From: Minisyncoccota bacterium
Lineage (GTDB): Bacteria > Patescibacteriota > Minisyncoccia > Phycocordibacterales > UBA918
Length of the DNA: 64,000 bases
Reading direction: 5' to 3'
NCBI GenBank assembly: GCA_022841645.1
Contig: JALHRC010000003.1
Coordinates: forward strand, 6,553 to 70,552
Each line of letters starts with the position of its first letter. Position 1 is the stretch's first letter. Under the pieces are notes generated by a model that worked only from the letters and a program-made list of their open reading frames with translations, searched no databases and had not been told where the DNA came from. Below, piece by piece: positions 15,861 through 55,151 of this stretch. Both the position numbers and the translations under genes were made by a program.

Positions 15861-17657
15861 ATGGCCACTCTCATTAGAAATTTCAGTATCATTGCGCACA
15901 TCGATCACGGCAAATCGACCTTGGCTGATCGTATGCTCGAGCTCACCAAAACCGTCGAGGCCCGCAAGATGAAAGACCAAATGCTCGACTCGATGGAGCT
16001 TGAGCGCGAGCGGGGCATCACCATCAAGATGCAGCCGGTGCGCATGCGCTATGAGCGGGGAGGGGTGGAATATGAACTCAATCTTATTGACACTCCTGGT
16101 CATATCGACTTTTCCTACGAAGTGTCGCGGGCACTGAAGGCCGTTGAGGGGGTACTACTCCTCGTTGACGCAACGCAGGGTATTCAAGCACAGACCCTCA
16201 CGACACTCCAGATGGCCAAGGACCAGGGCCTTACGATCATCCCAGTACTGACCAAAATTGATGTGCCGCACGCGCGGGTAGTAGATGTAAGTGGTGATGT
16301 GGTTACCTTGCTTGGCTGCGCTCCCGAGGATATTGTTTGTGTGTCAGGAAAAACTGGGGAGGGTGTACCAGAGCTTCTTTCAGTCATCTGCGATCGCATC
16401 CCACCGCCGGCGCCAAGCGAACACACTCAAGGCTTCCGTGGTCTTGTGTTTGATTTTCAATATAGCAATCACCGGGGGGTGATTGTATTTTTCCGTGTCT
16501 TTGATGGTCAGGTGAAGAAGGGCGATATGCTCCGCTTTATTGCGAGCGAGCGCACCTTTACCGCGCTTGAGGTGGGAATTGTAACGCCCGAGCAAAAAGC
16601 GGTCGAGATGCTGACCGCTGGGGAAATTGGCTATATCGTTACCGGCATCAAAGAGCCGGGGGTAACCCGCGTCGGTGACACACTTACGCTCGAGCGTTCC
16701 CCTCTGCCGGCTTTGCCTGGCTATACCGAGGCGCGACCAGTCGTATGGGCGTCGGTATTTCCGGAAAACCAGGATGATTTTACGATGCTCCGTCAGGCGC
16801 TTGATCGACTCAAGCTTTCTGATTCATCGCTCTCGTATGAGGAAGAATCGTCAGGAGTGCTGGGGCGGGGATTTCGTTGCGGCTTTCTCGGGATGCTCCA
16901 CCTCGAGATTGTGACCGAGCGCTTGCGCCGCGAATTTGACATGGAGATTATTATCACTGCTCCCTCGATTGCCTACGAGGTGACCTTTCCCAATGGAAGT
17001 GTAGAGTCTATCTACGCGGCATCACGTTTTCCCGAGCATGGCGAAAAGGTGAGTGTACGAGAGCCCTGGATCTTGGGACAGATTTTTATGCCGCCCGAGT
17101 ATATGGGAGGAGTTCTTACGCTGCTCTACGAACACGAAGCCAGTGTGCTTGATACTGAAGTCTTTCGTGACGGCCGTAATTTGCTTACGATCGAGATGCC
17201 GCTCCGGGAGCTTATGCGCAATTTCTTTGATAAGCTCAAAAATGTGAGCAGTGGCTACGCTTCACTCTCCTACGAAGTTGCTGAAGTGCGCCCGGCTGAT
17301 GTAGTACGGCTCGATATTTTGGTAGCCGAGGAATTGGTGCCGGCTTTCTCACGAGTGGTGGGAGCGCGCCGCGCTGAGTTTGATGGGCGCGCCATGATCG
17401 ATAAGCTCTACGACACGATGCCGCGCCAGCAGTTTGTCTTAAAGTTGCAGGCCAAGGTCCGAGGCAAGATTATTGCGAGCCGTTCGCTGTCGGCCCTTCG
17501 CAAAGACGTTACCGGCTACCTCTACGGCGGCGACATTACGCGTAAAATGAAACTCCTTGAGAAACAGAAGGAAGGCAAGAAAAAAGCTCTTGAGCGCGGC
17601 CGAGGCAATGTGCACATCCCGCAAGAAGTCTTCATGAAAATGGTTAAATCAGACTAA
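15861..17657 (+). CDS. lepA: Elongation factor 4 (LepA)
   Basis: Motifs IRNFSIIAHIDHGKSTLADR, GFRCGFLGMLH, LYGGDITRKMKLLEKQKEGKK. Confidence 0.98.
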   Translation: MATLIRNFSIIAHIDHGKSTLADRMLELTKTVEARKMKDQMLDSMELERERGITIKMQPVRMRYERGGVEYELNLIDTPGHIDFSYEVSRALKAVEGVLLLVDATQGIQAQTLTTLQMAKDQGLTIIPVLTKIDVPHARVVDVSGDVVTLLGCAPEDIVCVSGKTGEGVPELLSVICDRIPPPAPSEHTQGFRGLVFDFQYSNHRGVIVFFRVFDGQVKKGDMLRFIASERTFTALEVGIVTPEQKAVEMLTAGEIGYIVTGIKEPGVTRVGDTLTLERSPLPALPGYTEARPVVWASVFPENQDDFTMLRQALDRLKLSDSSLSYEEESSGVLGRGFRCGFLGMLHLEIVTERLRREFDMEIIITAPSIAYEVTFPNGSVESIYAASRFPEHGEKVSVREPWILGQIFMPPEYMGGVLTLLYEHEASVLDTEVFRDGRNLLTIEMPLRELMRNFFDKLKNVSSGYASLSYEVAEVRPADVVRLDILVAEELVPAFSRVVGARRAEFDGRAMIDKLYDTMPRQQFVLKLQAKVRGKIIASRSLSALRKDVTGYLYGGDITRKMKLLEKQKEGKKKALERGRGNVHIPQEVFMKMVKSD

Positions 17658-17871
17658 ATGTCTGATTTAAGACCTAGCCAGCTACTTTTGAGTGCGCGAA
17701 AAAAGTAGCGACAAGGTGTACTGGCGACCGTAGGGCGAAAAGTGACTAACGTCACTTTTGAGATCTTTTGAGATAGACTACGAGCGGAGCGAAGTAGTAT
17801 ATCCAAAAGGTATACTGGCACCTGTAAGCGGAATCAGACTAAATGTCTGATTTAAAACCTTGCCATCTACT
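17644..17871 (+). repeat. Structured element behind lepA with duplicated gene end
   Basis: AATCAGACTAAATGTCTGATTTAA at 17647-17670 and 17832-17855, with internal hairpins. Confidence 0.75.
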
Positions 17872-17903
17872 GCGACGGATGGAAGAAGCGTTACTAGCGG
17901 CCA

Positions 17904-18017
17904 CTAGGCCATGCCTAAAGTGAGGCCTATCACCATACTGGCGATGATAATAGTAGCCACGGTGATCCAGGTCCACTTAATAATCGCTTTTCCTCGTTTA
18001 TCAAACAGAAAATTCAT
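17904..18017 (-). CDS. 37-aa single-TM small protein (below the ORF-track cutoff)
   Basis: MNFLFDKRGKAIIKWTWITVATIIIASMVIGLTLGMA*: basic N-terminus plus one TM helix. Confidence 0.6.
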   Translation of the reverse strand: MNFLFDKRGKAIIKWTWITVATIIIASMVIGLTLGMA

Positions 18018-18037
18018 ACGTGGTAAGATAGTACCAC

Positions 18038-18364
18038 ATGTTGAGTTTCAGCCAAAAGCGCCAACTACGCCGTTTTGCCACCTCGCGGCTCATGCATATT
18101 GCGCTCCTTTTCGCCTGTGTGGCGGTGGGTGTAAGTGCCTATGGTCGCTATGAAGTAGCGCGCGAGATGGCGCAGCGACGAGCGGCGGCCGAGAGGGAAC
18201 TCGCGAGCCTCTCCGAGCGACGTGCGGCGCTCGAGGCCGAGGTGGCGTACCTCAAGAGTGAGCGAGGAATTGAAGCGGAGATGCGACGTCAGTTTGATAT
18301 TGCTCGTGAGGGCGAACAGGTGGTCATTATTCTCGACAAACCCACTACCGCTGAAACAAACTAG
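18038..18364 (+). CDS. Septum formation initiator (FtsB/DivIC-like)
   Basis: TM helix, coiled coil, IEAEMRRQFDIAREGEQVV. Confidence 0.75.
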   Translation: MLSFSQKRQLRRFATSRLMHIALLFACVAVGVSAYGRYEVAREMAQRRAAAERELASLSERRAALEAEVAYLKSERGIEAEMRRQFDIAREGEQVVIILDKPTTAETN

Positions 18365-18411
18365 CCAGCCAAGCGTACTACGCGTATACTGGTCATATTA
18401 AACACCCTTGT

Positions 18412-18648
18412 ATGTCAAAAACCGTCACCATTTACAGCACCCCGGTCTGCCATTACTGCCACACCGCCAAAGAATTTTTTAAAGAGAACAACATTGCTTA
18501 CACTGAGCACGATGTGGCGAGCGACGCCGAGAAGCGCGCTGAGATGGTCGACATGACAGGTCAGATGGGTGTGCCGGTGATTCGCATCGAAGACGAAGTG
18601 ATTGTCGGCTACGACGAAGATAAGCTCAAAGAGCTTTTAGGAGTGTAG
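18412..18648 (+). CDS. Glutaredoxin/NrdH-like redoxin
   Basis: Motifs YSTPVCHYC, GQMGVPVI, IVGYD. Confidence 0.9.
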   Translation: MSKTVTIYSTPVCHYCHTAKEFFKENNIAYTEHDVASDAEKRAEMVDMTGQMGVPVIRIEDEVIVGYDEDKLKELLGV

Positions 18649-18672
18649 CGAAGAGAGGAGGGTACGAGTGAG

Positions 18673-18706
18673 GCAAAAAAGTCGCCCTTATGGGCGACTT
18701 TTTTGC
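18673..18706 (+). terminator. Intrinsic terminator
   Basis: GCAAAAAAGTCGCCC-ttat-GGGCGACTTTTTTGC. Confidence 0.8.
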
Positions 18707-18737
18707 TGTCCAGAAATATGCCATACTGACGCGACTT

Positions 18738-18810
18738 GCCCCCGTAGTTCAATGGATTAGAACAGTCCCGTCCTAAGGGATAGATGTAGGTTCGATTCCT
18801 ACCGAGGGCA
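18738..18810 (+). tRNA. tRNA-Arg(CCT)
   Basis: Cloverleaf; anticodon arm GTCCC-GTCCTAA-GGGAT; T arm GTAGG-TTCGATT-CCTAC; CCA not encoded. Confidence 0.92.
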
Positions 18811-18836
18811 CAAACACGTTATAATAAAGTGTCACC

Positions 18837-19124
18837 ATGGAAACCATCGACACGCATGATGAAATTAAGGAGCTGCTCCTTGAAAACCAGCGGCTGCTTA
18901 AAGAAAATAACGAGCTACTGTTAGGTATGCGCCGCAGTGCGCGCTGGGCGTTCGCATTTCGGGTGCTGTGGTTTGCGATGATTCTCGGTGCACCGATCGC
19001 GCTCTACTATCTTTTGCTTGAGCCAAACATTGACTCGCTTTATCGGGCGTACGGGGTCTTTGAGCGGAGCGCCACCGAGCTTACGGGCTTGCGCCAATTC
19101 CTCAATGAATCAGGCACAGAATGA
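18837..19124 (+). CDS. Small membrane protein, hypothetical
   Basis: Coiled coil (LLENQRLLKENNELL) plus TM helix; TATAAT upstream. Confidence 0.7.
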   Translation: METIDTHDEIKELLLENQRLLKENNELLLGMRRSARWAFAFRVLWFAMILGAPIALYYLLLEPNIDSLYRAYGVFERSATELTGLRQFLNESGTE

Positions 19125-19132
19125 TATATAAG

Positions 19133-19205
19133 TGCTTGGGGCCGGGCTCGAACCGGCGACCCCCTCCTCTTCAGGGAGATGCTCTACCAACTGAGCTACC
19201 CAAGC
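19133..19205 (-). tRNA. tRNA-Phe(GAA)
   Basis: GCTTGGG...TCTCC-CTGAAGA-GGAGG...GCCGG-TTCGAGC-CCGGC-CCCAAGCA. Confidence 0.95.
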
Positions 19206-19289
19206 AATTCGTGGCAAGTATACTCGATTTACACACTATTTCAACTAGAACGTCCGCAAACTTTTTATTACATTGTAGATGTAGTTTGT

Positions 19290-19327
19290 AAAAGTAAGAG
19301 CTACCTCTAGAGGTAGCTCTTACTTTT
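19290..19327. terminator. Perfect 38-bp palindrome, probable terminator of hsp20
   Basis: AAAAGTAAGAGCTACCTCT|AGAGGTAGCTCTTACTTTT. Confidence 0.6.
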
Positions 19328-19344
19328 TTACGCCGTAAGAATTG

Positions 19345-19848
19345 CTACTTCTGCACCACGTTGCTCTTCACCCGCAACTGCGTGCTGCGCTGCTTGTCGA
19401 GCTTGGGGAGGCGAATCTCCAGGAGACCGTGCTTCTCTTGGGCCTCAGCTTCGTCAATCACAATTTCTTCGGGAAGCAGCACTGAACGTGAGAAGCTGCC
19501 CCAAAAGAGCTCGCGGTTTTGGTAGTTGTCGTCATGAGTTTCCTGGAATTCTTCGCGGACGCCGCGGATGGTGACCATATCGCGGGTGATCGCAATATCA
19601 AGATCGGTAGGGGCAACACCAGCTACGAGCGCCCGAATCACAATGGCGTCGCTGGTCTGGTACATGTCGATGGGGAGCTCACCCTCCTGGGGGGCGCGGG
19701 TGCCTGAGGCGGCGTCGTTTTCCCACGTGTCGGCTTCTTCGTGCTCGTCGGCTTCATCACCAAAGCGGTGATTCTCATCGAGAATTTTATCATAGTCGGT
19801 ATCTGGGGCACTGCCCGTGAGTCGTTCGAGGAATGAGGGTTTTTTCAT
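19345..19848 (-). CDS. Hsp20/alpha-crystallin small heat-shock protein
   Basis: Motifs LPIDMYQT, ELFWGSFSRSVLLP, HGLLEIRLPK. Confidence 0.92.
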   Translation of the reverse strand: MKKPSFLERLTGSAPDTDYDKILDENHRFGDEADEHEEADTWENDAASGTRAPQEGELPIDMYQTSDAIVIRALVAGVAPTDLDIAITRDMVTIRGVREEFQETHDDNYQNRELFWGSFSRSVLLPEEIVIDEAEAQEKHGLLEIRLPKLDKQRSTQLRVKSNVVQK

Positions 19849-20570
19849 GAGCGTGGTACCGAGTTAGTGTGGGCTGATTCGATCAATTTTACTTTTTCAA
19901 AGAGAAGAAACAGAACAATGATGCCGAGCCAGACAAACAGGAAGACCCCGAGGGTTGCCTCTCCACTTGCATCAATTATAAAAAAGTTAAAGAGCGCATG
20001 CAATACGATAGCAATGAACAACCCAACCGTGGCGTAGGCGAGGCGGACCAGCGGTGGGCGATAAAAAGCGAGCGCGAGCGCCATTCCTACGGTGCCGGAA
20101 GCGAGGACGTGCAGCAAGGTGGCACCCAAGAAGCGGAAACTGCCAAACAGCGCTGTTTCCACGAAGGCACCTTCACCGAGGGGGCGGAACATAAAGAGAG
20201 CGTTTTCGAGTGCCGCAAAGCCGAGCGCGATCACTATCAGGTAGATCACCATATCAATTGGTTCGTCGACTTCGCGGTGCCAGAGAATAACAATGAGCGC
20301 CGCCGTGTACTTGAGTACTTCCTCGATAATTACCCAGAGCGTCATGAGGTTGTCGCCAGCCGGGTAGCAGGCACCGGCCTGCAGGAGGTCGCAGGCAAAT
20401 TTTTGTAAAGGGAGCGCGAGCGGCACCACCAACATGCCGGCGATGAAGGTAATGGCAATAAGCAGGTATGGTTCCGGTCGAGCACGGTCTTCACGTAGCC
20501 AAAACCACAACCAAAACAATGCGGGAATAAGCCCGCCTAAAAAAGCAATTGCAAACGTGGTAGCGTCCAC
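19845..20570 (-). CDS. PrsW family intramembrane protease
   Basis: Motifs IEEVLKY, GFAALEN, LLHVLAS, LHALFN. Confidence 0.88.
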   Translation of the reverse strand: MDATTFAIAFLGGLIPALFWLWFWLREDRARPEPYLLIAITFIAGMLVVPLALPLQKFACDLLQAGACYPAGDNLMTLWVIIEEVLKYTAALIVILWHREVDEPIDMVIYLIVIALGFAALENALFMFRPLGEGAFVETALFGSFRFLGATLLHVLASGTVGMALALAFYRPPLVRLAYATVGLFIAIVLHALFNFFIIDASGEATLGVFLFVWLGIIVLFLLFEKVKLIESAHTNSVPRS

Positions 20571-20711
20571 GAGGGTATTGTACCAAGCGTAGCGGCCCCC
20601 TGGGGCCGCTACGCTTGCCTCTGTGGGGACGAAAAAGCCGCCTCTCCCTAAACCCTTCGGTTAACCGAAGGGTTTTTAGGAAGTTGCAGGAAGTTTCTTG
20701 GGGAGCTTTCC

Positions 20712-20936
20712 GTGGACACTTCGCTACCATTAAGCAGAAACAAGAAGCCGTAGGCGACTATGTTTTGCTTATGCGGCCGCCTCAAACACTACCGTTACTT
20801 TCGTCGCTTTGATGCTCGAAAGTAACGAAGTGTTTGCCTAATCAAAATATGTTCGTGCTCCGCACTCACTATTTCTGTTCATCACTACCTTTGAACAGCA
20901 AAGTGATAAAAGTGGTGGCGGCGAGCCGCCAGTATA
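20712..20936 (-). repeat. Structured element behind valS with a diverged copy of the valS 3' end
   Basis: 20712-20733 matches 20942-20963 at 19/22 nt; internal hairpins. Confidence 0.6.
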
Positions 20937-23162
20937 TTATTGTGGCCATTTCGCTACCATCAACATTTCCGCATCTTTCATATGTGTCGGCAACTCCTGC
21001 CAAATTGCTTCGGTCACAAACGGCATGAAAGGGTGAAGAAGCTTGAGTGAAGTGATGAGACATTCGGCCAGTACTGCTTGGCGGGCAGTCTTGGCGCCTT
21101 CGTCCGTACCATTAATTATAGGTTTTGATTCTTCAAGGATTTTGTCAGCCAGCTCATGCCAGATGTAGTGGTAGGTTTTTTCAGCGGCGAGGTGGAGCGA
21201 GAATTTTTCCAGATCGTCAGACACCTCAGCTACTACGGCGTGGAGAGTAGAAAGGATCTCCTCGTCACTGGCATTTTTTGTACCGGTGGAGCTGGGTGTA
21301 TAGCCATCGAGTGCAGTCAGGGTGAAGCGGGTGATGTTCCAGAGTTTATTGGCAAAGTGCTTGTAGCCCTTAGTCTTTTGTTCTGATAGTGGCACGTCAT
21401 TCCCTGGTGCTGCGCCAATGATAAGTGAAAGACGTACGGCGTCAGCACCATACTTGGCGATCATATCGAGAGGGTCGATGATATTGCCAAGACTCTTGCT
21501 CATTTTGCGATTCTTTTCGTCACGCACCAGGCCATGAAGATAGACGTTTTTAAAGGGCACCTGACCAGTGAGGAAGGTGGACATAAGTACCATGCGGGCT
21601 ACCCAGAAAAACAATATGTCGTAACCGGTTTCGAGGACGGTGGTGGGATGGTAGTTTTTGAGGTCGGCAGTTTCCTCTGGCCAACCGAGGGTCGAGAAAG
21701 TCCACAATCCCGAAGAGAACCAGGTGTCGAGGGTATCGAGGTCCTGCTGCCAGCCGTCGCCTGAAGGAGGTACTACATCGCAGTAAATCTCACCATTCTT
21801 ATACCAGACGGGAATGCGGTGACCATACCAAATTTGCCGCGAAATACACCAGTCGCGGAGATTCCCGATCCAGTGGTAGTACACGCGTTTAAAGCGCTCG
21901 GGGAAGATGTCGACACCACCGTGCTCGACGGCGGCGGTCATGAGCTCTTTGAGTGTTACTTCACTTCCCGAGGTAACGCCAGGAATTTCTGAGTGGGGGA
22001 GGACAAACTTCTTATTTACATCAATGAACCATTGCTCTTTGATCTGCGGTTCGATGGTGCCACCGCCACGGCTGTTGGTGGCCACGTTATGGACGTACTT
22101 CTCTTCGATTTTTTCCACTAGGCCTTTCTGCTGAAGTTTCTCGATGATAGCAGCTCGCGCTTTCTTAATGTGCTGGCCGGCAAATTCACCAGCAACCGGA
22201 AGCAACAGACCTTTTTCGTCGATTATTTGTTCTTTGTCGAGTCCGTGCCGCTCAGCAATCTCAAAGTCCGTGGCGTCATGCCACGGGGTGATAGTCATGA
22301 CACCGGTGCCGAATTCACGGTCGATTGAATCGTCCTTGATGACTGTGGCGGTAATTGGACCATTAATCCACTCGAGTTCTATCTGCTGGCCCTGGGTGTA
22401 GTCCTTATAGCGCTCATCGTCCGGATGCATTACCACGTACTTATCGCCAAACTTAGTCTCAGGCCGCGCGGTACCAATGACAAACGGCCCGTACTTAAGG
22501 TAATAGAACTGGTCGGTTTGTTCGACGTGATCAATTTCGTCATCGGAGACGGTAGTCTGCATTTTGGGATCCCAATTGACGATACGGGCGCCGCGGTAGA
22601 TGAGCCCGGCCTCAAACATTCGTTTAAAGGCAGTCATTACGGCGTGGTAGCGAGTGCCGTCAAGGGTGAAGGCATAGCGTGACCAGTCGAGACTCGAACC
22701 CATTTTTTTAGTTTGGCCGATGATGGTGTTTTTGCTTTCCTCAGCAAATTCGTAGACGAGTTTAAGAAACTCTTCGCGACCCAGGTCGTGGCGGGTTTTG
22801 CCCTCCTTCTTGTACAGTTCGCTTTCGACCTTCGATTGCGTCGCAATAGCTGCCGAGTCAGTACCGGGAATCCACAATGTGCGCTTACCTTGCATGCGGG
22901 CGTAGCGAACAAGTATGTCCTCGACGGCGAGCATGGCGGCGTGTCCCATGTGAAGGGTGCCAGTGACATTGGGAGGCGGCAGGACAATCGAGAAGGTGGG
23001 GGCGTCCGCGGCAGCAATTCCTTTCTCTATACAAACATCAGGATTGAAAAAATCGCTTTGCTCCCACATGGCGTAGAGGCGATCTTCGTGACCTGCTGGG
23101 TCGTAGGGCTTTAGAAAAACCTCGGGGATGGCGGGTGCGGCGGGTGTGGGGGTGTCACTCAT
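20937..23162 (-). CDS. valS: Valine--tRNA ligase lacking the C-terminal coiled coil
   Basis: Motifs PPPNVTGTLHMGHA, DWCISRQIWYGHRIP, KMSKS. Confidence 0.97.
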   Translation of the reverse strand: MSDTPTPAAPAIPEVFLKPYDPAGHEDRLYAMWEQSDFFNPDVCIEKGIAAADAPTFSIVLPPPNVTGTLHMGHAAMLAVEDILVRYARMQGKRTLWIPGTDSAAIATQSKVESELYKKEGKTRHDLGREEFLKLVYEFAEESKNTIIGQTKKMGSSLDWSRYAFTLDGTRYHAVMTAFKRMFEAGLIYRGARIVNWDPKMQTTVSDDEIDHVEQTDQFYYLKYGPFVIGTARPETKFGDKYVVMHPDDERYKDYTQGQQIELEWINGPITATVIKDDSIDREFGTGVMTITPWHDATDFEIAERHGLDKEQIIDEKGLLLPVAGEFAGQHIKKARAAIIEKLQQKGLVEKIEEKYVHNVATNSRGGGTIEPQIKEQWFIDVNKKFVLPHSEIPGVTSGSEVTLKELMTAAVEHGGVDIFPERFKRVYYHWIGNLRDWCISRQIWYGHRIPVWYKNGEIYCDVVPPSGDGWQQDLDTLDTWFSSGLWTFSTLGWPEETADLKNYHPTTVLETGYDILFFWVARMVLMSTFLTGQVPFKNVYLHGLVRDEKNRKMSKSLGNIIDPLDMIAKYGADAVRLSLIIGAAPGNDVPLSEQKTKGYKHFANKLWNITRFTLTALDGYTPSSTGTKNASDEEILSTLHAVVAEVSDDLEKFSLHLAAEKTYHYIWHELADKILEESKPIINGTDEGAKTARQAVLAECLITSLKLLHPFMPFVTEAIWQELPTHMKDAEMLMVAKWPQ

Positions 23163-23224
23163 AAAGATAACGATTAGAAACGCATCGTAGCACGAAAAAG
23201 CACCGTCTTGAAGGCTCTTCGCAC

Positions 23225-24403: not shown

Positions 24404-24414
24404 GGTGTACTAGT

Positions 24415-25287: not shown

Positions 25288-25499
25288 CCACTAAGTATAG
25301 CATATCTTAACGATTTTAGCAACTCAAACCGTTAAAAACAACAAAAAAGGTGCTATTTTAACGAATTTAGTGATTTTTTCATGAAAATTTAATGGGGACA
25401 TGACATCGAGTCATAGTGTACCTACTGCTAGCAGAACGCCCTGGTACCCCCGCGTGCTACCCGGCTCTGCTCTACTGTGGGGTGAGCTCGTCAGATGTT

Positions 25500-26825: not shown

Positions 26826-26833
26826 ATTTAAAA

Positions 26834-29851: not shown

Positions 29852-30023
29852 CGGTGCAGGACTTGACCCAGAATCACGGATTTTTATTTCGTCTGCGACT
29901 CATAAAAATGCTCGTGTTCTTGGTCGGCCCCTCGCGTAGGTTGCTCCTTAGTGGTCGCAACCTACATGCGCCGGGGCTTCAAGTCCTGACACAACGCCCG
30001 CAGGGGCGTTGTTCACCACGCAC
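29852..30023 (-). mobile_element. tRNA-end-associated structured mini-element (outer, at tRNA-Val)
   Basis: Direct copy of the tRNA-Val 3' end, 111-nt core homologous to 45230-45339, inverted copy split by a 25-nt hairpin; mobility is inferred. Confidence 0.7.
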
Positions 30024-30030
30024 CGTCGTC

Positions 30031-30184
30031 GCTATGCTCCTCAAGTGGGGTCAAGTTTCTAATTCGCTACGCTTATAAGAACTTGCTCCCCTGGCTCGCC
30101 TGTTTTCTGCTGTAGGGACGGAGCAGAAAACATGGCTCCGCCTCGCACTCGAGCCCGCACGCAAAACTGTTTGCGTGCTATACC
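30031..30184 (-). mobile_element. tRNA-end-associated structured mini-element (inner, at tRNA-Val)
   Basis: Core homologous to 51047-51145; inverted copy of the tRNA 3' flank split by a 25-nt hairpin; mobility is inferred. Confidence 0.65.
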
Positions 30185-30223
30185 AAAAAACAATACCCAC
30201 TAGGGGGTATTGTTTTTTGGTAT
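30180..30223 (-). terminator. Terminator hairpin after tRNA-Val
   Basis: ATACCAAAAAACAATACCC...GGGTATTGTTTTTTGGTAT. Confidence 0.7.
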
Positions 30224-30230
30224 GCTCAAG

Positions 30231-30303
30231 TGCGCGGTGCAGGACTTGAACCTACGACCCCCACAATGTCAATGTGGTGCTCTACCAGCTGAGCTAACCG
30301 CGC
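30231..30303 (-). tRNA. tRNA-Val(GAC)
   Basis: GCGCGGT...CCACA-TTGACAT-TGTGG...GTAGG-TTCAAGT-CCTGC-ACCGCGCA. Confidence 0.95.
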
Positions 30304-44428: not shown

Positions 44429-44433
44429 CAACG

Positions 44434-45162: not shown

Positions 45163-45211
45163 TGGAGCACTGTAGCAAAAAAATACTGGCTAGCCAATTA
45201 TGGAAACGCAA

Positions 45212-45387
45212 GGAAGCGGAGAGATTTGACCCAGAATCGCGGCTCTTTTACTTCGCTACGCTTGTAAAAGTGACTCGCGTTCTCGGTCGACACCTCGCGT
45301 GTTTTACTCTTTGACGTCGCAAAACACAAGCTCCGGTGCTTCAAATCCCTACGTACCGTGCGCAGGCACGGTACTCCGCTTCCGCGA
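45212..45387 (-). mobile_element. tRNA-end-associated structured mini-element at tRNA-Ser
   Basis: 17/18 direct copy of the tRNA 3' end, 110-nt core, inverted copy split by a 25-nt hairpin; mobility is inferred. Confidence 0.72.
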
Positions 45388-45426
45388 ACAAAATATGCGT
45401 CCACAAGGGACGCTATTTTGTACTCG

Positions 45427-45513
45427 CGGAAGCGGAGGGATTTGAACCCTCGATAGAGTTTCCCCTATGCCGGTTTTCGAAACCGGTACCTTCAACCACT
45501 CAGCCACGCTTCC
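45427..45513 (-). tRNA. tRNA-Ser(CGA)
   Basis: GGAAGCG acceptor, CCGGT-TTCGAAA-ACCGG, long variable arm, GAGGG-TTCAAAT-CCCTC, G discriminator. Confidence 0.93.
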
Positions 45514-45562
45514 AGTGGGAACGGTGCTATACTAGCACCGTTATTCAGTAAGTTTCAAATGT

Positions 45563-45916: not shown

Positions 45917-45929
45917 CCAGCTGTCGCCT

Positions 45930-46430: not shown

Positions 46431-46527
46431 CAGTGAAGCACAAGCACGTACTACATTAAATACGTATTTAATGTAGTACGTGAAAAACGAAGAAGGGCCG
46501 GCGCGCTTGCGCGCCGGCCCTTCACGT

Positions 46528-47154: not shown

Positions 47155-47207
47155 ATGCCAGTTATTACGCTAGTTCACGGTATTTATTTCTGCGCTAGAA
47201 TAGAATG

Positions 47208-48056: not shown

Positions 48057-48087
48057 GGTTTACGCATAGTAGTGGTAGTATTTTTAT

Positions 48088-48846
48088 ATGGAGAGACTGA
48101 CACTAAAAGATGAAGCCACCACAAAAATAAGAGAAATGATCGAAGGGGAGCCAGAGGTATTTTTTATTTTAGTGGGAGCAATGAAGTTTAGTCAGCAAAA
48201 GGGTCGCTATGAAAATGGCTCATTTGGTGACGCCGATGAGAACTCGCTCAGGTCGACGGGCGTGCCGCTCGCAACTGGAGGAAAAGATCGGATGCTGGCG
48301 GCAGAAGCCCTCAATCAAGTCTTCCCCCGTTCCCTCATCGTCCCTATGAGTCGTACACGTAACGAAGACAAGCCCACCTATGCGTCGGTTACCAAAGAAG
48401 AGTTGTTACGCAAGGGTGTACCAGACGAGATTATTGCTCTCGAAGAAGTTTCTGTCAGCACAATCACCGAATTTAAAGAGGCAGCCAAAATGTGGCACCA
48501 AGAGCGCTGGACTAACCTGGCGTTTATTACCAGTAATTGGCATTTGCCTCGCAGTGAGCGACTGTTTAATCGTTTAGAAAATTTCGCTGACGACGAAACT
48601 GAAACAGAAATACTGTCAGCATTTGCTGAAGCAGTTCGAAACGGCAGTGTGCGCATACAGTTTGTAGGTGCGAGTGACGTACTTACAGCCAAAAGCAAGC
48701 ACTATGAGACGTTATTTAAAGCAGTAGACAATGACGAGGGAGTGCGGGAGCGAAAGCGGGTTGAGGCAGGGGGCATAGCTCAAATTGAGGCAGGTGAGTA
48801 CGGTGGTCGGAAATTACCAAAAAAAATTTGGGAAGATAGGCCGTAG
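48088..48846 (+). CDS. YdcF/DUF218-like protein
   Basis: Motifs LEEVSVSTITE and ITSNWHLPRS. Confidence 0.7.
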   Translation: MERLTLKDEATTKIREMIEGEPEVFFILVGAMKFSQQKGRYENGSFGDADENSLRSTGVPLATGGKDRMLAAEALNQVFPRSLIVPMSRTRNEDKPTYASVTKEELLRKGVPDEIIALEEVSVSTITEFKEAAKMWHQERWTNLAFITSNWHLPRSERLFNRLENFADDETETEILSAFAEAVRNGSVRIQFVGASDVLTAKSKHYETLFKAVDNDEGVRERKRVEAGGIAQIEAGEYGGRKLPKKIWEDRP

Positions 48847-48933
48847 TTGGTGGCGCTCACCGCGCGGTGTAAATAGGCTCCTAGTTATAGTCCGCTTTTT
48901 ACGGTATAGTGAAGGTCGAAAGGAGGTGATCTT

Positions 48934-49158
48934 TTGCGCATACATCTGATTCTGATTACCGCGATCGCGCTGCTCGGGCTCTTGCCTGGATGTGTCGTGA
49001 CACTGAATCGTCCGCCCATCTACCATGACCCGCGTCCTTTCTACTACCCGCCAGTACGCCCGCACTACCACGCGCCACCGCCGCGGCACTGGCAGCGAGC
49101 GCCACCACGCCACCACTTTGAGCCTCGCTATCGAGACCGGAGACATTGGCGCAGGTGA
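48934..49158 (+). CDS. Small Pro/His/Arg-rich lipoprotein
   Basis: Strong SD AAGGAGGTGA, TTG start, lipobox LPGC. Confidence 0.65.
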   Translation: MRIHLILITAIALLGLLPGCVVTLNRPPIYHDPRPFYYPPVRPHYHAPPPRHWQRAPPRHHFEPRYRDRRHWRR

Positions 49159-49281
49159 GCACACTCGCTATGACGGCGAAGTCGACAGCCCTGGCGTGCC
49201 TGCACGCCAGGGCTGAAGTTTTACTAGTTTGTCCGCAATGCACCGCCCTGCTCTGCCGGAGCGTGAGCAGGGCGGATGTTT

Positions 49282-49656
49282 TTACGAGGTGTACAGGCTC
49301 TCGCGCACTTTCTTTACAATTTCGTCGAGGCTGTTGTGAGCTTTGATGATGTAACTCGTTATGTCACCGTCGTAGGCGCCGGCAATATTGCCAGCGTCGT
49401 CCATCGCACTTAAAACTACGACGCGGGCCTGCTTTCCCCACGGATCCTGGCGAAGTTTTTCTAGCACAGTATGGCCATCGTATCCGGGCATAATGAGATC
49501 AAGTAAAATGATGTCAGGATGTTCTTGGAGCGCCTGTGCGAGTCCATCCATCCCATTGGTGGCCGTACCGACTTTAAAACCAGCGTCAGTGAGTGCTTCT
49601 GCCACTGCTTCGCGGATGTCTTTTTCGTCCTCGATAAGTAGGACTGTTTTTTCCAT
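49282..49656 (-). CDS. Single-domain response regulator
   Basis: Motifs LLIEDE, PDIILLDLIMP, VLSA, YIIK. Confidence 0.92.
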   Translation of the reverse strand: MEKTVLLIEDEKDIREAVAEALTDAGFKVGTATNGMDGLAQALQEHPDIILLDLIMPGYDGHTVLEKLRQDPWGKQARVVVLSAMDDAGNIAGAYDGDITSYIIKAHNSLDEIVKKVRESLYTS

Positions 49657-49725
49657 ATACCACAATTTTACCACATTCCTATCATCGCCACCCTGGTCGT
49701 GACTACAAGCTGGTACTATAGAGAT

Positions 49726-50985
49726 ATGAAAACAGCCACGCGGATTAGGGCATGGAATCGGGTGAGTTATCTCTTCCTCGCGCTTTTTCTTTCTCTGGCG
49801 ATAGGATTAGTGTTCTTTCACACTGATTTAGAACTCAACCAACTACAGCGCATTGGAGGGGGTGTGATAGCAATTATACTCATGCTGGGATGGGTGTTGG
49901 TACAGCGGAAGCGCGATCGTTGGCTGACTGCCACGCTGGAGCGCATCCAACTTTCTGATGAAGAGTCATTTTACTTGCTTTTCAGTAACAGCCCAGTAGC
50001 ACATATTATTCTTGATCGATCTGGCAAGATTGCTAATTTTAATCCAGCGACAGCCCAGCTCTTAAAGACGAAACTACATGCACTCAGTGGTCGTTCGTTC
50101 GTGACACTGTGCGCTCCTGAATTTGATACGTCTATCTTAGCTCAAAAACTACGCGCTGGAATCACTATTAATGAACTGGAGCTTCCTCTGATCACTGATG
50201 AAGGGATGCTCGTGTGGACACTCTTGTCGGTGAGTTCATTGTTGTGGGAAGAAAAGCTGTTAATTACGATGGTTGATATTACCGATCAGAAAAAAGTAGA
50301 CACTGCCAAGTCAGAATTTGTGGCGCTTGCCACCCACCAGTTGCGTACCCCAATTGCCGCTATCCGCTACGCGACCGAGCTGCTGGGCCGACGGCTCGCC
50401 GATGGAGCAACTGAACGGAATGCTGCGTACATTGATAAGATCGACCGCAATGTGGTGCGTATGCTCTCACTCATTGACGACTTTCTCAATGTTTCAAAAC
50501 TTGAAATGGGTACCTTTGCCACCGAGCCAAGCCGTCTTAACATGAGTGAATTTGTGACGGGTGTACTCGATGAACTTGGTGATCGTATGCTAAAGCAGCG
50601 TATCACTGCAACTCGAAGTGATACGCCAACTGATCTTTGGTTTATCACCGACCCACGTCTCCTTAACATTATTCTCACTAATCTCATTTCCAACGCGGTT
50701 AAATACACTCCCGAAGGCGGCAAGATCCACGTAGCGTTCACTGGTACCAGCTCTTCGTTGCGATTTGAAATCAGTGATTCAGGTATCGGTATTCCGGCCG
50801 CCGAAATTCCCCAGCTGTTTAGTAAATTCTTTAGGGCAAGTAACGCTCGAACGATTCAGACCGAAGGAACTGGCCTGGGGCTATACATTGTGGCGCAGGC
50901 CTTACAAAAGTTAGGTGGCACGATTGAGGTTGACTCGCGTGTTGGTGAGGGGACCAGTTTTGTGGTCACCATTGCGTCTTTGTGA
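49726..50985 (+). CDS. PAS-domain sensor histidine kinase
   Basis: Two TMs, PAS domain, THQLRTP H-box, NLISNAVKY, DSGIGI, GTGLGL. Confidence 0.93.
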   Translation: MKTATRIRAWNRVSYLFLALFLSLAIGLVFFHTDLELNQLQRIGGGVIAIILMLGWVLVQRKRDRWLTATLERIQLSDEESFYLLFSNSPVAHIILDRSGKIANFNPATAQLLKTKLHALSGRSFVTLCAPEFDTSILAQKLRAGITINELELPLITDEGMLVWTLLSVSSLLWEEKLLITMVDITDQKKVDTAKSEFVALATHQLRTPIAAIRYATELLGRRLADGATERNAAYIDKIDRNVVRMLSLIDDFLNVSKLEMGTFATEPSRLNMSEFVTGVLDELGDRMLKQRITATRSDTPTDLWFITDPRLLNIILTNLISNAVKYTPEGGKIHVAFTGTSSSLRFEISDSGIGIPAAEIPQLFSKFFRASNARTIQTEGTGLGLYIVAQALQKLGGTIEVDSRVGEGTSFVVTIASL

Positions 50986-51043
50986 GTCGAGTAAGTGGAA
51001 TAGGGGCGTTCATACCAGTGTCGCAAGCCAGCCTGGTTATGTG

Positions 51044-51335
51044 TGTGGTCACGAGTTACTAATTCGCTACGCTCATAAGTACTCTCGACCCCGGCTCGGC
51101 CGTTTTAGCTTTAGGAAAAAGCTGAAAACATGCCTGCGGCCGTCACCGCGACACGTCAGCGACATTAGTCGCTCTTGTGGTCACCAGTCACTAAGCGTAT
51201 TTGTTCACTACGTTCCAAATCCGCTAAGTGCTGTCGACCCCGCCTCGCGGTTTCCGCCGCTTTGACGGCGACGGAAACATCGCTGCGGCCGTCACACGAG
51301 CCGAAACTGAAAGCTTTCAGTTTCTAAAACGAAAC
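51044..51335 (-). mobile_element. Two tandem structured mini-elements behind tRNA-Glu
   Basis: Two related units GTGGTCAC...CGACCC...CTGCGGCCGTCAC; inverted tRNA-end copy split by a 25-nt hairpin (51301-51325); mobility is inferred. Confidence 0.68.
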
Positions 51336-51376
51336 AGCCTTCTTTGGATGAAGAAGGCGGTTTCGTTTTTGTCGTG

Positions 51377-51448
51377 TGACCCCACCGGGAGTCGAACCCG
51401 GCTTTAAAGCTTGAAAAGCTTTCGTCCTAACCGATAGACGATGGGGCC
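51377..51448 (-). tRNA. tRNA-Glu(TTC)
   Basis: GGCCCCA...AAAGC-TTTTCAA-GCTTT...CCGGG-TTCGACT-CCCGG-TGGGGTCA. Confidence 0.95.
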
Positions 51449-51587
51449 AAATTGGTGCGCCTCATGATACCAAAAAGGTAATAAAAAGCTAGTGGTAGCA
51501 GGGCTGAGGTGGCGTTCGATGCGGTACCCGATGTACGAATATATGCGGTATAATCAGCGACAATTATTCTCTGAATATACTAAGTCT

Positions 51588-53513
51588 ATGAGCAAAACCA
51601 CCCACCGCATTCTGGAAGAAATTGCCGAAGAAAGGGGAGAGCTGCGAGAGCGGGCGCTGCTGACTATCCTTACGGGTATCGGCCTAGTAACCGGGGTTTT
51701 GGGCCAGTGGCTTGATTGGCCTACGTCGGTCGTGGTGGTGGCATTCGTCGCGGCTTATTTGGGGGGTGGTATACCAGCTGCTCGAGAAGCAATTTCCTCC
51801 TTGTTTAAAGGTCATCTCAACATTGACCTCCTCATGGTACTGGCGGCACTGGCCGCTGCTGGGGTAGGTGAGGTGCGTGATGGAGCGATTCTACTCTTTC
51901 TCTTTAGCCTCGCGGGTACCTTAGAAAAATACGCTATGGGTAATACCAAGCGGTCAGTAGCTGCCCTCATGGACTTGCGGCCCGACGAAGCTAACAGAAA
52001 GTTGTCTGACGGGACCACCGAGCGCGTGCGGGTGGAGGAACTGCAGGTGGGTGATGATATCCTGGTTCGACCTGGTGAACGGATTCCAATTGATGGCGTG
52101 ATTGTCGCCGGCGCAGGTGCCGTTGATCAGTCAACAATCACCGGTGAATCTGTGCCTCTCGATAAGGGGATAAACGACAAGGTATTTGCTGGGTCAATGA
52201 ATCAGAACGCTTTATTGACGATTTCTGTTACCGCGACAGCTGCACATTCCACTCTCGCGCGGATGATCGATTTGGTGACTGAGGCACAGGAAAAGCGGTC
52301 ACCTAGTGAAAGTTTTAGTGACTGGTTTGGTGAGCGTTATACGGTGGTGGTACTCGTGGGTAGTGTGATCGCACTCGGCGTTTTTCTCCTTGTTGGTATA
52401 CCGACTGATTTAGCTTTTTATAAAGCCGCGACGTTGCTTGTGGTGGCAAGTCCCTGTGCAATTGTGATCAGTGTGCCGGCGGCGGTACTGTCGGCACTAG
52501 CATCTGCCGCGCGACATGGTGTTTTGTTTAAAGGTGGTGCAGCACTCGAGAACTTTGGTAACGTATCGGTGCTGGCGCTTGATAAGACCGGCACTCTTAC
52601 CACGGGTGCTATGGAAGTGGTCAGGGTAATAGCATTTTCTGAATCTGAAGAGAGTGTCCTGGCGCTCGCTGCCTCGCTTGAGACGCACTCTGATCACCCC
52701 CTGGCACGCAGTATCGTGCGTTATGCACAAAGTAATGGGGTGCGTAGTTTAGAAGCTGAAGGAGCGGCAGCGGTTCCCGGGAAAGGGGTGCTTGCCCAGG
52801 TGCACGGTCAGATAGCTTGGGCAGGTAATCGAGCCCTTCTTAAAGAACGGGGTGTGACGTTATCATCAGAGCAAGACGCACAGATAGCGGCGCGCGAAGT
52901 TGAAGGTGAGACACCGATAGTGATCGGTAGTGGCAGCACCCTGTGGGGTGTGGTAACACTCGCTGATACACCGCGTGCTACGGCACAGGCGGCGCTTCAT
53001 GGGCTGCGACAATCAGGGGTAAAAAGTATCGTCATGCTCACTGGTGATAGTGTGGCGGTAGCTCAAACGATCGGACGTCGGCTTGGCTTTTCTCCCGAGA
53101 CAATCTATGGAGGACTGCTTCCCGAAGATAAGGTGGTGCAGATAGAACAACTAGCCGGCAAGGGCCTGGTAGCGTTTGTTGGTGATGGGGTGAACGATGC
53201 AGCAGCGCTGGCGACGGCGCGGGTAGGGGTGGCGATGGGTGTAGCAGGTACCGACGCAGCACTTGAGGCAGCTGATGTAGCACTTCTATCTGACGACTTG
53301 CGACAGCTCACCTACGCCCATACCTTAGCCAAGAAGGCGAATCGCATCATCAAGCAAAACCTGATCTTTGCTTGCGGCATTATGGCTCTTATGGTGGTAA
53401 CGACGCTCTTCTTCCACTTACCGCTGCCACTTGGCGTTATTGGCCACGAAGGAGGAACGCTTCTTGTGGTAGCGAATGGTTTACGACTCCTTCTGAGTCG
53501 TTCAGAGAAGTAG
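51588..53513 (+). CDS. Heavy-metal P-type ATPase, P1B-4 type
   Basis: Motifs TGES, SPC, DKTGT, GDGVND, HEGGT. Confidence 0.93.
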   Translation: MSKTTHRILEEIAEERGELRERALLTILTGIGLVTGVLGQWLDWPTSVVVVAFVAAYLGGGIPAAREAISSLFKGHLNIDLLMVLAALAAAGVGEVRDGAILLFLFSLAGTLEKYAMGNTKRSVAALMDLRPDEANRKLSDGTTERVRVEELQVGDDILVRPGERIPIDGVIVAGAGAVDQSTITGESVPLDKGINDKVFAGSMNQNALLTISVTATAAHSTLARMIDLVTEAQEKRSPSESFSDWFGERYTVVVLVGSVIALGVFLLVGIPTDLAFYKAATLLVVASPCAIVISVPAAVLSALASAARHGVLFKGGAALENFGNVSVLALDKTGTLTTGAMEVVRVIAFSESEESVLALAASLETHSDHPLARSIVRYAQSNGVRSLEAEGAAAVPGKGVLAQVHGQIAWAGNRALLKERGVTLSSEQDAQIAAREVEGETPIVIGSGSTLWGVVTLADTPRATAQAALHGLRQSGVKSIVMLTGDSVAVAQTIGRRLGFSPETIYGGLLPEDKVVQIEQLAGKGLVAFVGDGVNDAAALATARVGVAMGVAGTDAALEAADVALLSDDLRQLTYAHTLAKKANRIIKQNLIFACGIMALMVVTTLFFHLPLPLGVIGHEGGTLLVVANGLRLLLSRSEK

Positions 53514-53741
53514 TGCGCGTGCAAGTACCAATCTACAGGCTTTCCCACGGCCTTCTACAGTGGTATTCCACCGACTTTTCCACCGGTTATACCCAGTCTA
53601 CGGTAAAATAACGGTCTTTAGGGGCGATTGACTGTAGAGGTGGGTATGCGACTATACACACAGGTTTGCACGGTGGTGAGTATTACATACTTAATGTCCG
53701 AGGCTACGGGCAACGCGTGCAGACCTACATCTCTACGTTGT

Positions 53742-53781
53742 ACAAAACAAAGCACCCTCGTCGCGGGGGTGTTTTGTTTTG
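53742..53781. terminator. Bidirectional terminator
   Basis: A-rich arm, GCACCCTCG-t-CGCGGGGGTGT stem, T-rich arm, between convergent genes. Confidence 0.65.
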
Positions 53782-53808
53782 CTCAAATTTTTCTTCTGAG
53801 GAAGGTGA

Positions 53809-54729
53809 CTATTTGGTGCGGAGCGTGACGTAGATGTCCTCGAGCGCCCGCACACCGTCGCCAGCAGAAATATTGTTCTGGTGGTACTTCACGTTGGTAC
53901 AATCACCGGCGGCCCAGATGCCTGGGGTAGTGGTCTTCTGCGTCCAGGGGTCAATTTCGATGCGGCCATAGGTGTCGAGTGCGACTACATTTTTGGCAAA
54001 GTCGGTGTTGGGGAGCATGCCGATCTCGATAAAGATTCCCGTGACGGGTAGTTCGACAATTTCACCAGTCTGGTTGCGGTAGCGGAGGCCACTCACAAAC
54101 TTCTCACCAAATACTTCGGTAGTATTGGCCTCGGTAATCCCGCGCATGTTGGGGTGGGCTAGTACCTTTGCAACCGTCACCGGATCAGCCTTAAACGTTG
54201 GGCCATGCTGAAGGAGGGTGACACTCTTGGTGTACGCCAGGAGCTGGGCGGCTGTTTCAAAACCAGCGTTACCGCCACCAATTACCGCAACATCTTGTCC
54301 GGCAAATAGCGGACCATCGCAGGAGGCGCAGTACGTGAGGCCTTTATGTTCAAAGATGTCAGCTCCGCTAGCGGAAAGCTGGCGGCGTCGGCTGCCACTG
54401 GCTATCAGGATGGATAGGGTGTCGTGAGTGGTACCATTTTCTAGCGTCACACGAAAGCCACCGTCATTTTTTTCAATATTGGTAGCGAGGGCTTTATCAC
54501 TGATGTCGACAAAGCCGTCGGCGTAGGTATGCAAGTGGGCTTTTAGGGTATCCGCCAAGGCAGCGCCAGAAAGAGAAGGCGTGCCAATCCAGTTTTGAAT
54601 GTCAGGTGAAACTGTGCTCTGCCCACCCCACTCTTTAGTAATAAAGAGAGTTTTCAGTTGCTTTCGTGAGGCGTAGACACCAGCGGCTATGCCTGCCGGC
54701 CCGCCACCAATAATGATGAGTTCGTACAT
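53809..54729 (-). CDS. trxB: Thioredoxin reductase (TrxB/AhpF C-terminal-like)
   Basis: Motifs IIGGGPAG, YCASCDG, VIGGGNAG, WAAGDC. Confidence 0.88.
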   Translation of the reverse strand: MYELIIIGGGPAGIAAGVYASRKQLKTLFITKEWGGQSTVSPDIQNWIGTPSLSGAALADTLKAHLHTYADGFVDISDKALATNIEKNDGGFRVTLENGTTHDTLSILIASGSRRRQLSASGADIFEHKGLTYCASCDGPLFAGQDVAVIGGGNAGFETAAQLLAYTKSVTLLQHGPTFKADPVTVAKVLAHPNMRGITEANTTEVFGEKFVSGLRYRNQTGEIVELPVTGIFIEIGMLPNTDFAKNVVALDTYGRIEIDPWTQKTTTPGIWAAGDCTNVKYHQNNISAGDGVRALEDIYVTLRTK

Positions 54730-54790
54730 AAGTAATCAGTGAAAATGAAGTGCACACCAGCATAGCATGATGAGGAAGCGGTGGCACGGG

Positions 54791-54828
54791 GAAACCCGGC
54801 CGGTCCCTTTAGGGACCGGCCGGGTTTC
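54791..54828. terminator. GC-rich hairpin downstream of the ftsZ region
   Basis: GAAACCCGGCCGGTCCC-ttta-GGGACCGGCCGGGTTTC. Confidence 0.6.
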
Positions 54829-54855
54829 GTACGTGTGGTGCGTGGTTTAAGAGTT

Positions 54856-55151
54856 GGCACCGGTCACAAGTCACTAACTATAATTGGCCGCTACGCTCCA
54901 ATTCTAGTAAGTGCTCGCGACCCGTGAAAAGCAATATTGAATTGCTTTTCACCGCGGCCCGTTTGTCCCCAAAGACAAACGGGCAACGCTGCGGCCGGCA
55001 GTGCCTGCTATTTCAGCTTGCTTCGCCGCAGAAATGCAGGTACTGCCTCTTACAGAGGCAGTCCACTCATTGGTCTTTTTGCTTCGTGGGAAGCTTGCAA
55101 AAATACTCAATGAGTCCGCCGTGCCCTCGCTGCGTCGCTCACTGCGCTCAA
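54856..55151 (-). mobile_element. Stacked structured elements behind ftsZ, including a synonymously recoded copy of the ftsZ 3' end
   Basis: 55008-55046 encodes [12 protein letters not shown]; core 54862-54996 homologous to the tRNA-Glu units; mobility is inferred. Confidence 0.72.

What the first reader, a model, noticed from the sequence alone, without database searches (positions are those of the whole stretch)
17644..55151. Candidate undescribed system: mini-elements at conserved gene 3' ends sharing a C-GNA-G triloop signature
Seen: structured inserts follow lepA, valS, tRNA-Val (two), tRNA-Ser, tRNA-Glu (two) and ftsZ. On the sense strand of the host gene each has a capped mini-hairpin: GA-GC-GGA-GC-GAA (17782-17793, plus strand like lepA), GA-GTGC-GGA-GCAC-GAA (20852-20867), GA-GTC-GCA-GAC-GAA (29888-29901), AA-GC-GTA-GC-GAA (30063-30074 and 45252-45263), GA-GC-GTA-GC-GAA (51063-51074), GA-AC-GTA-GT-GAA (51204-51215) and GA-GC-GTA-GC-GGC (54887-54898). 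The stem covaries, the C-GNA-G triloop is invariant, and orientation tracks the host gene. Established: d(GCGNAGC) triloops are exceptionally stable in single-stranded DNA. Integron attC sites, CTXphi attP and REP/IS200-IS605 ends all act as folded ssDNA. Inference: these are non-autonomous elements that fold as ssDNA, rebuild a duplex mimic of their target from direct and inverted copies, and are inserted by a trans-acting enzyme not identified in this window.
Basis: partly seen in the sequence, partly recalled or inferred. Interest (0 to 1): 0.88.

Follow-up and report, generated by a model that had tools for sequence, protein, structure and literature searches.

The report
Gene-less jumpers that rebuild gene ends
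Tiny folded DNA elements with no genes of their own jump into the conserved tails of tRNA and essential protein genes in ultra-small bacteria, often bringing a spare copy of the tail so the gene survives; the enzyme that moves them is still unknown.

Summary
All eight capped hairpins are at the stated places and far above chance. The 'invariant C-GNA-G triloop' is not the family's signature: only 7 of 29 class A and 12 of 109 class B relatives have it. The cores belong to two related, strongly covarying, gene-less modules (A, B), abundant in this Patescibacteria-type genus (up to 68 per genome) and order. A free ~100-nt class B unit has sharp ends, no terminal inverted repeats and no target duplication; it replaces exactly 3 target bases (22 of 27 comparable sites), the first a G in 26 of 27. 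Targeted versions carry their own copy of the host gene's tail plus a complementary arm and displace the resident tail. Displaced ftsZ and fusA tails differ from live ones at 40 synonymous and 2 non-synonymous codons, so the tails travel between lineages. A and B use the same tRNA bond (T55^C56). No ORF-bearing copy or linked enzyme was found, nor any Rfam or literature match. The scan noted this family before in other genomes. Best reading: non-autonomous single-stranded-DNA elements grafted by an unknown trans-acting nuclease.

The parts
15861..17657 (+). lepA (host gene); its last codons form the 5' arm of the first unit's left hairpin
17644..17737 (+). class B unit 1 at lepA: left hairpin 17644-17670, main hairpin without GNA cap, terminal GTA hairpin
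17737..17831 (+). class B unit 2 (tandem): left hairpin 17737-17759, cap 17782-17793, right end 17810-17831
17831..17890 (+). decayed third unit: left hairpin and start of core; right limit approximate
20720..20936 (-). structured insert behind valS with cap 20852-20867 and a 14-nt copy (20720-20733) of valS 20950-20963; not matched by class A or B models
20937..23162 (-). valS (host gene)
30230..30303 (-). tRNA-Val(GAC) (host gene)
30047..30229 (-). first A-like unit behind tRNA-Val: long hairpin, degenerate inverted arm 30148-30160, side helix, short core 30047-30091 with cap 30063-30074
29853..30046 (-). second A-like unit: inverted T-arm 29978-29986, side helix, core 29867-29926 with cap 29888-29901, displaced tRNA-Val tail 29853-29866
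45426..45513 (-). tRNA-Ser(CGA) (host gene)
45212..45425 (-). A-like unit behind tRNA-Ser: split inverted arm (45374-45384, 45340-45349), side helix, core 45230-45289 with cap 45252-45263, displaced tail 45212-45229
51376..51448 (-). tRNA-Glu(TTC) (host gene)
51179..51375 (-). class A unit 1 behind tRNA-Glu: core 51179-51240 with cap 51204-51215; arm covers only the acceptor end
51047..51178 (-). class A unit 2: short core 51047-51091 with cap 51063-51074
55152..56423 (-). ftsZ (host gene); its last ~13 codons are the tail carried by the class B unit
55008..55045 (-). displaced ftsZ tail: same peptide as the live tail, 9 of 12 codons differ, all synonymous
54862..55007 (-). older class A unit: arm 54997-55007 matching the displaced tail, side helix 54951-54995, core 54862-54923 with degenerate cap 54887-54898

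Best explanation
A superfamily of non-autonomous mobile mini-elements (about 100-220 nt) that act as folded single-stranded DNA. SHOWN: fixed ends; a covarying main hairpin; insertion with loss of three target bases that begin with G; two life-styles. Free class B units land in many folded targets (tRNA loops, junctions and caps of other elements, some genes). Arm-bearing A and B units begin with their own copy of a conserved gene tail, pair it with an inverted arm, and push the resident tail downstream, so the gene stays intact. INFERRED: a trans-acting ssDNA hairpin-recognising nuclease/strand-transferase (an HUH/Y1-type enzyme is my first guess, a small GIY-YIG nickase the second) cuts 5' of a G in both element and target and joins the target's 3' end to the element's 5' end. 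The element's 3' end is a fold-back whose last three bases are templated on its own strand, and host repair seals it with loss of the three target bases. Arm-bearing units spread between lineages, probably on transforming DNA (the host has a ComEC-family competence gene), and re-invade the same conserved sites.
For: Covariation: class B 96% paired, score 0.712 vs 0.163 shuffled, 77 sequences; class A 94.5%, 0.348 vs 0.124, 44 sequences. Pairs are 92-93% Watson-Crick, G-T exceeds A-C (53:22, 19:3), and the terminal loop is GTA in most B units; the sense strand folds better in 6 of 6 window loci, two by a small margin. Sharp ends in 116 metagenome units; the last three bases pair with an internal trinucleotide in 109 of 116 while both vary. 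22 of 27 sites with an empty-like homologue lose 3 nt, first base G in 26 of 27; purine at -2 in 110 of 120. 47 of 57 tRNA/tmRNA loci with arm plus displaced tail have C56 directly after an A or B right end, over 16 tRNA types and tmRNA. Displaced ftsZ/fusA tails: 40 synonymous vs 2 non-synonymous codon differences. Copy number 0-68 in 61 genus genomes; empty lepA and valS alleles. Competence family PF03772 present.
Against: No ORF-bearing copy and no recurrent neighbouring enzyme in about 180 loci. Loss of 3 nt is not what IS608-type transposition does (PMC5934647 passages). Y1 presence tracks class B number within the genus (median 17 vs 7.5, p=2e-6, kin not independent) but not class A number across the order (rho 0.15, p=0.26); Y1 genes carry unrelated palindromes and occur in 70 of 149 phylum genomes where class B was seen once. 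Arms match the carried tail better than the displaced one (ftsZ), so they are imperfect guides. 'Empty' sites are homologues from other genomes, not parents; 5 of 27 lose 2 or 4 nt. The valS copy has 1 synonymous vs 3 non-synonymous differences. RNA-level folding is not excluded.
Confidence: 0.5

Rival explanations
1. Only the free class B unit needs an enzyme. Arm-bearing units spread passively by natural transformation: the folded element loops out, RecA pairs the gene body, and the right-hand crossover falls in the short displaced tail (homology-facilitated illegitimate recombination), which keeps displaced tails 'fresh'.
For: Explains synonymous displaced tails and constant junctions without a guide; arms match the carried tail, not the target; competence gene present.
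Against: Does not explain how 16 tRNA types, tmRNA and several protein genes were first colonised at the same bond by two classes, nor near-identical cores with different arms at two tRNAs of this genome (1 difference in 68 nt). Tails are only ~36 nt and ~70% alike.
Confidence: 0.2
2. Bacterial SINE-like retro-elements: the unit is transcribed with the host gene and inserted by target-primed reverse transcription at staggered nicks, giving a small target deletion.
For: Small target-site deletions are typical of some target-primed retro-insertion (recalled, R2 elements); sense orientation behind strongly transcribed genes.
Against: RT in only 18 of 61 genus genomes, no link to copy number (median 13 vs 11, p=0.76); few G-U pairs and GTA triloops; both ends sharp, no 5' truncation series seen; antisense insertions exist.
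Confidence: 0.1
3. Folded-ssDNA recombination sites for a tyrosine recombinase, like integron attC or CTXphi attP, used by the host XerC/D-type enzyme.
For: Imperfect stems with conserved bulges; crossover next to G-T-T of the T-loop; one tyrosine recombinase in the genome.
Against: One strand exchange loses no bases; targets share no recombinase box; no gene cassettes between units.
Confidence: 0.1
4. Host-maintained cis-regulatory or terminator RNAs that spread by gene conversion.
For: Position just behind gene ends on the sense strand; terminator-like hairpins in the arms.
Against: Copy number 0-68, nesting inside each other, insertion into anticodon and D loops and into coding starts, displaced gene tails.
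Confidence: 0.05

Closest known systems
IS200/IS605 single-strand transposons (IS608) and their ORF-less derivatives
   Same: Hairpins near both ends, no terminal inverted repeats, no target duplication, strand asymmetry; an internal short sequence pairs with the terminal bases, like the GR/CR pair of IS608 (PMC5934647, passages read). Extended element-target pairing has been engineered for IS608 in that paper.
   Different: Three target bases are lost; no fixed tetranucleotide retained in the left flank; no tnpA-bearing copy found; targeted versions carry a replacement gene tail.
REP/BIME with RAYT; CGTC REPs / NTS-SRM with Ssn GIY-YIG nucleases
   Same: Folded ssDNA repeats at gene ends; the cap sequence resembles the loop of SRMs flanking Ssn-like genes here (G000 C18, L196; PMC11893778 sections, PMC3733652 passages).
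   Different: Units are 3-5 times longer, multi-helix, lack GTAG/CGTC tags; the cap is dispensable; RAYT and Ssn genes carry their own different palindromes.
tRNA/tmRNA-integrating islands (T-loop class; recalled from Williams' surveys)
   Same: Break in the T-loop, carry a replacement 3' end, displace the original, stack in arrays.
   Different: No integrase, 100-220 nt, carry an inverted arm, also use protein-gene tails.
MITEs (Correia, ERIC, RPE)
   Same: Small, gene-less, high copy, structured.
   Different: No terminal inverted repeats, no target-site duplication.
Small GIY-YIG units of Patescibacteria bounded by a target copy and its inverted arm (seen here at valS, 23S rRNA and start codons)
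   Same: Same arm design and some of the same hot spots.
   Different: They encode a nuclease and lack the class A/B core; absent (with this query) from 10 of the 14 genomes richest in class B.

Membership tests
IS200/IS605 and derivatives | Subterminal hairpins, no terminal inverted repeats, no target duplication | tested here: met
IS200/IS605 and derivatives | Conservative insertion with no loss of target bases | tested here: not met
   3 nt lost in 22 of 27 sites, none with zero loss as top match
IS200/IS605 and derivatives | Fixed tetra/pentanucleotide target kept in the left flank | tested here: not met
   only a purine at -2 (110 of 120) and G-rich flank
IS200/IS605 and derivatives | Cognate Y1 TnpA between or beside the same ends | tested here: not met
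   3 of 31 Y1 loci have a class B unit within 1.5 kb, none enclosing the ORF; own palindromes differ
REP/BIME-RAYT and CGTC REP / Ssn-SRM | 20-50-nt palindrome tagged GTAG or CGTC, flanking its nuclease gene | tested here: not met
   units 70-120 nt or more, no tag; one SRM-flanked Ssn-like gene in G000 is a separate element
REP/BIME-RAYT and CGTC REP / Ssn-SRM | Binding and cleavage by the nuclease | not testable with these tools
   needs in vitro assay
MITE | Terminal inverted repeats and target-site duplication | tested here: not met
tRNA-integrating island / CIME | Replacement of the split tRNA 3' end | tested here: met
tRNA-integrating island / CIME | Integrase gene in the element or a cognate integrase-bearing relative | tested here: not met
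   none in about 180 loci; one XerC/D-like gene elsewhere
Integron attC | RYYYAAC...GTTRRRY core sites flanking gene cassettes, with IntI | tested here: not met
   no cassettes, no such boxes in alignments
IS110/IS1111 | DEDD transposase in host or element | tested here: inconclusive
   none in G000; relatives not searched
Rfam ncRNA families | Match at gathering score | tested here: not met
   only tRNAs

The most novel reading that the evidence does not exclude
A new class of DNA-guided mobile element: a gene-less folded ssDNA whose own arm selects a conserved gene tail, whose ends are defined by its fold, and which is grafted by a not yet recognised enzyme (or mainly by host repair proteins) with a three-base replacement, rebuilding the tRNA or protein tail it cuts. 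This would be a natural, reprogrammable insertion system distinct from IS200/IS605, IS110 and integrases.
Probability: 0.3. Interest if true: 0.92.

Novelty: new variant of a known kind. Interest (0 to 1): 0.72.

Why it matters
These units are among the most abundant repeats of an order of ultra-small bacteria, yet I found them in neither Rfam nor the papers searched. They swap the tails of essential genes (FtsZ, EF-G, tRNAs) between lineages, confuse annotation and break assemblies. The junction rule (cut 5' of G, three bases replaced, fold-back 3' end) fits no transposition chemistry I can name and gives a direct in vitro test. If the arm is a guide, this is a natural version of the extended-pairing retargeting engineered for IS608.

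Tried and rejected
Viral contigs: four pattern scans gave 0 true hits (the 8 hits were coding chance matches). Plasmid and phage collections: no match. The genome contigs pattern was too strict (1 hit). Orphan half-elements suggesting an enclosed ORF: none. Neighbour-ORF clustering over about 180 loci: no recurrent enzyme. GIY-YIG genes near class A units proved to sit upstream of the tRNA/tmRNA or elsewhere in the cluster, not inside the units. Total GIY-YIG count: rho 0.17 with class B in the genus, rho 0.33, p=0.01 uncorrected, with class A in the order; the mobile subtype shows no link (p=0.76). Idea that the main stem is an 'inside-out' RAYT palindrome: no joined palindromes found, RAYT palindromes differ. 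Y2/IS91 search uninformative (no control rang). Three serine recombinases exist in G000, not followed up. Model R2 was built with a mis-registered structure string (exposed), so it acted mainly as a sequence profile; pairs were recounted with the right register. A generic foot-pairing regex gave noise; the subtype-anchored one gave 42 of 53, 7 of 9 and 4 of 4 paired feet, and no match for the fourth subtype. No RNA evidence was obtained. No structure or complex prediction was run.
Full report
OBSERVATION. The window is G000:C3:6553-70552 of a 1.12-Mb, 57-contig genome. The strict cap occurs 8 times in the window against 0.3 in 100 shuffles, and 30 times in the genome against 5.7; with an outer stem, 16 against 0.5. 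Fifteen of these 16 follow a gene 3' end on the same strand; the other is at a duplicated msrA start. Rfam shows only tRNAs. Four runs of one study hold the 44.5-56 kb stretch nearly identically; they may include the source sample, so they speak against misassembly but are not independent.

ANATOMY. Reading behind all 43 tRNA genes and near the caps (part of the output was cut) showed two related modules. Class A: gene tail, hairpin, inverted arm, side helix, main hairpin ending GTGAC. Class B: left hairpin, main hairpin, small terminal hairpin with a GTA loop. The inner stems of some A and B units are nearly the same and hybrids exist. Class B pairs covary strongly (96% paired, 0.712 vs 0.163, 77 sequences), as do class A pairs in the corrected register (94.5%, 0.348 vs 0.124, 44 sequences); alignments were fitted to the models, so these lean towards the structure. 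Pairs are 92-93% Watson-Crick with G-T above A-C, which suggests one DNA strand but does not exclude RNA. The cap is variable and can be missing: strict C-GNA-G in 6 of 13 B and 6 of 15 A cores here, 12 of 109 metagenome B units, 7 of 29 order-level A units.

DISTRIBUTION. Model R1 (class B) hits 57 of 60 other genus genomes, 984 matches with G000, 0-68 per genome (some weak matches are class A). It hit 1 of 149 phylum genomes, but only 30 candidates each were scored; B units do occur in other families of the order. Model R2 (class A) hits 39 of 60 other order genomes. None was found in viral contigs, phages or plasmids.

JUNCTION RULE. The free class B unit runs from GTGAG to CTGTAAG plus three bases; these three pair with an internal trinucleotide in 109 of 116 units while both vary. 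Of 120 units with both flanks, 27 had an empty-like homologous site among the DNA held: 22 lack three target bases, 4 lack four, 1 lacks two; the first lost base is G in 26. The element's last three bases equal the lost ones in only 4 of the 22 (6 with ties), and differ at conserved tRNA positions, so bases are replaced, not kept. Targets include tRNA D, anticodon (both strands) and T loops, and the feet and caps of other units. Of 195 tRNA/tmRNA genes examined (a sample enriched for elements), 57 have an arm followed by a displaced tail; in 47 the tail starts at C56 right after an A (29) or B (18) end. This fits the same rule, with G53-T54-T55 as the lost triplet (inference).

CARRIED TAILS. 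At ftsZ the window has a live tail, a class B unit whose arm matches it, a displaced tail, then an older class A unit whose arm matches the displaced tail. The displaced tail encodes the same peptide with 9 of 12 codons changed, all synonymously, and is close to the live tail of G007. G007 (class A, 10:0) and G018 (class B, 9:0) show the same; G010 has a class A unit but no intact displaced tail; G015 is truncated. fusA gives 5:0, 3:0 and 4:2; valS gives 1:3. Neutral decay of a duplicate would not spare the peptide, so each tail was once live in some lineage. lepA: by eye, among same-genus relatives one has a class B unit, about six have other structured inserts and at least three have none; in the window the 'duplication' is the left hairpin of three tandem units. 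valS: 4 of 5 relatives are empty. No empty ftsZ allele was seen in the 3 readable relatives.

ENZYME. G000 has three small GIY-YIG genes plus a longer UvrC-like hit, two Y1 genes, one tyrosine recombinase, one RT, three serine recombinases and no IS110. No unit encloses an ORF and no enzyme recurs beside them. Y1 presence tracks class B number in the genus (33 vs 28 genomes, medians 17 vs 7.5) but not class A number across the order, and Y1 genes have other palindromes. RT and mobile GIY-YIG show no link. The enzyme is unknown.

MECHANISM. My best account is a one-strand graft: a trans nuclease cuts 5' of a G in folded element and folded target, joins the element's 5' end, and the fold-back 3' end is completed and sealed by host repair, costing three bases. 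Arm-bearing units survive in essential genes because they bring the tail. The ends, the loss and the carried tails are shown; enzyme, intermediate and any guide role of the arm are inferred.

COMPARISON. It works most like IS200/IS605 single-strand transposition (PMC5934647: passages on guide/cleavage pairing and engineered extended pairing) but fails membership on base loss, target motif and cognate enzyme. It is not a REP/SRM (PMC3733652 passages; PMC11893778 outline, first part of Results, Discussion), MITE, attC site or integrase island. PMC5737381 (passages only) notes that such motifs may be ssDNA, and the passages read name none like this; its supplement was not seen. Searches (listings only) found no description; the library lacks most subscription journals. 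Earlier notes of this scan describe the tRNA-linked units in several other genomes, also without an enzyme; they are unchecked AI notes, not support.

VERDICT. Novelty: new variant of non-autonomous single-strand elements, with a 0.3 chance of a new class. Interest 0.72.

Noticed in passing
G000:C7:43967-44363 (L312), outside the window: A tRNA gene split in the anticodon loop by a ~320-nt insert that looks by eye like a group I intron (features recalled); no Rfam hit at gathering score. Two element units follow it.
   Followed up: partly
G000:C18:8600-9100 (L002): Ssn-like GIY-YIG gene flanked by inverted CGTC-type repeats, next to a class A unit at the rpsI 3' end.
   Followed up: partly
G000:C1:71622-71906 (L003); L105, L110, L113, L117, L119: Small GIY-YIG genes bounded by a target copy and its inverted arm, inserted at start codons, in 23S rRNA and at the valS end.
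   Followed up: partly
G000:C5:1320-1480 (L065); L155, L090: Free class B unit inside a displaced 5' fragment of msrA (and of a glycoside-hydrolase-like gene in two relatives), followed by a second intact gene start.
   Followed up: partly
L009, L012, L013 (lepA ends); L066, L076, L330: A third structured family with a GTAC-stem inner hairpin sits behind lepA, rpmB and valS in relatives and hosts antisense class B insertions.
   Followed up: no
G000:C15:32579-33247, C8:1618, C24:7443; G000:C8:43952-44398: A RAYT-like gene with its own flanking palindrome (two further copies elsewhere) and an IS200-like gene with terminal palindromes.
   Followed up: partly
window 54893, run X1: Summed contig depth near 9900 on the class A core vs about 44 for the genome: the module is shared by many or abundant other contigs of that sample; not a copy number.
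   Followed up: no
window 51359-51371: All four laid runs differ from the window at three bases in the hairpin just behind tRNA-Glu: strain difference or assembly error.
   Followed up: no
window 20584-20675, 54791-54828: Several perfect 13-18-bp palindromes downstream of the valS and ftsZ inserts, probably terminator-like; not analysed.
   Followed up: no
G000:C38:1405-1900: Contig with tRNA-Ile/tRNA-Ala and GC-rich repeats unlike the rest of the genome; may be a foreign contig.
   Followed up: no
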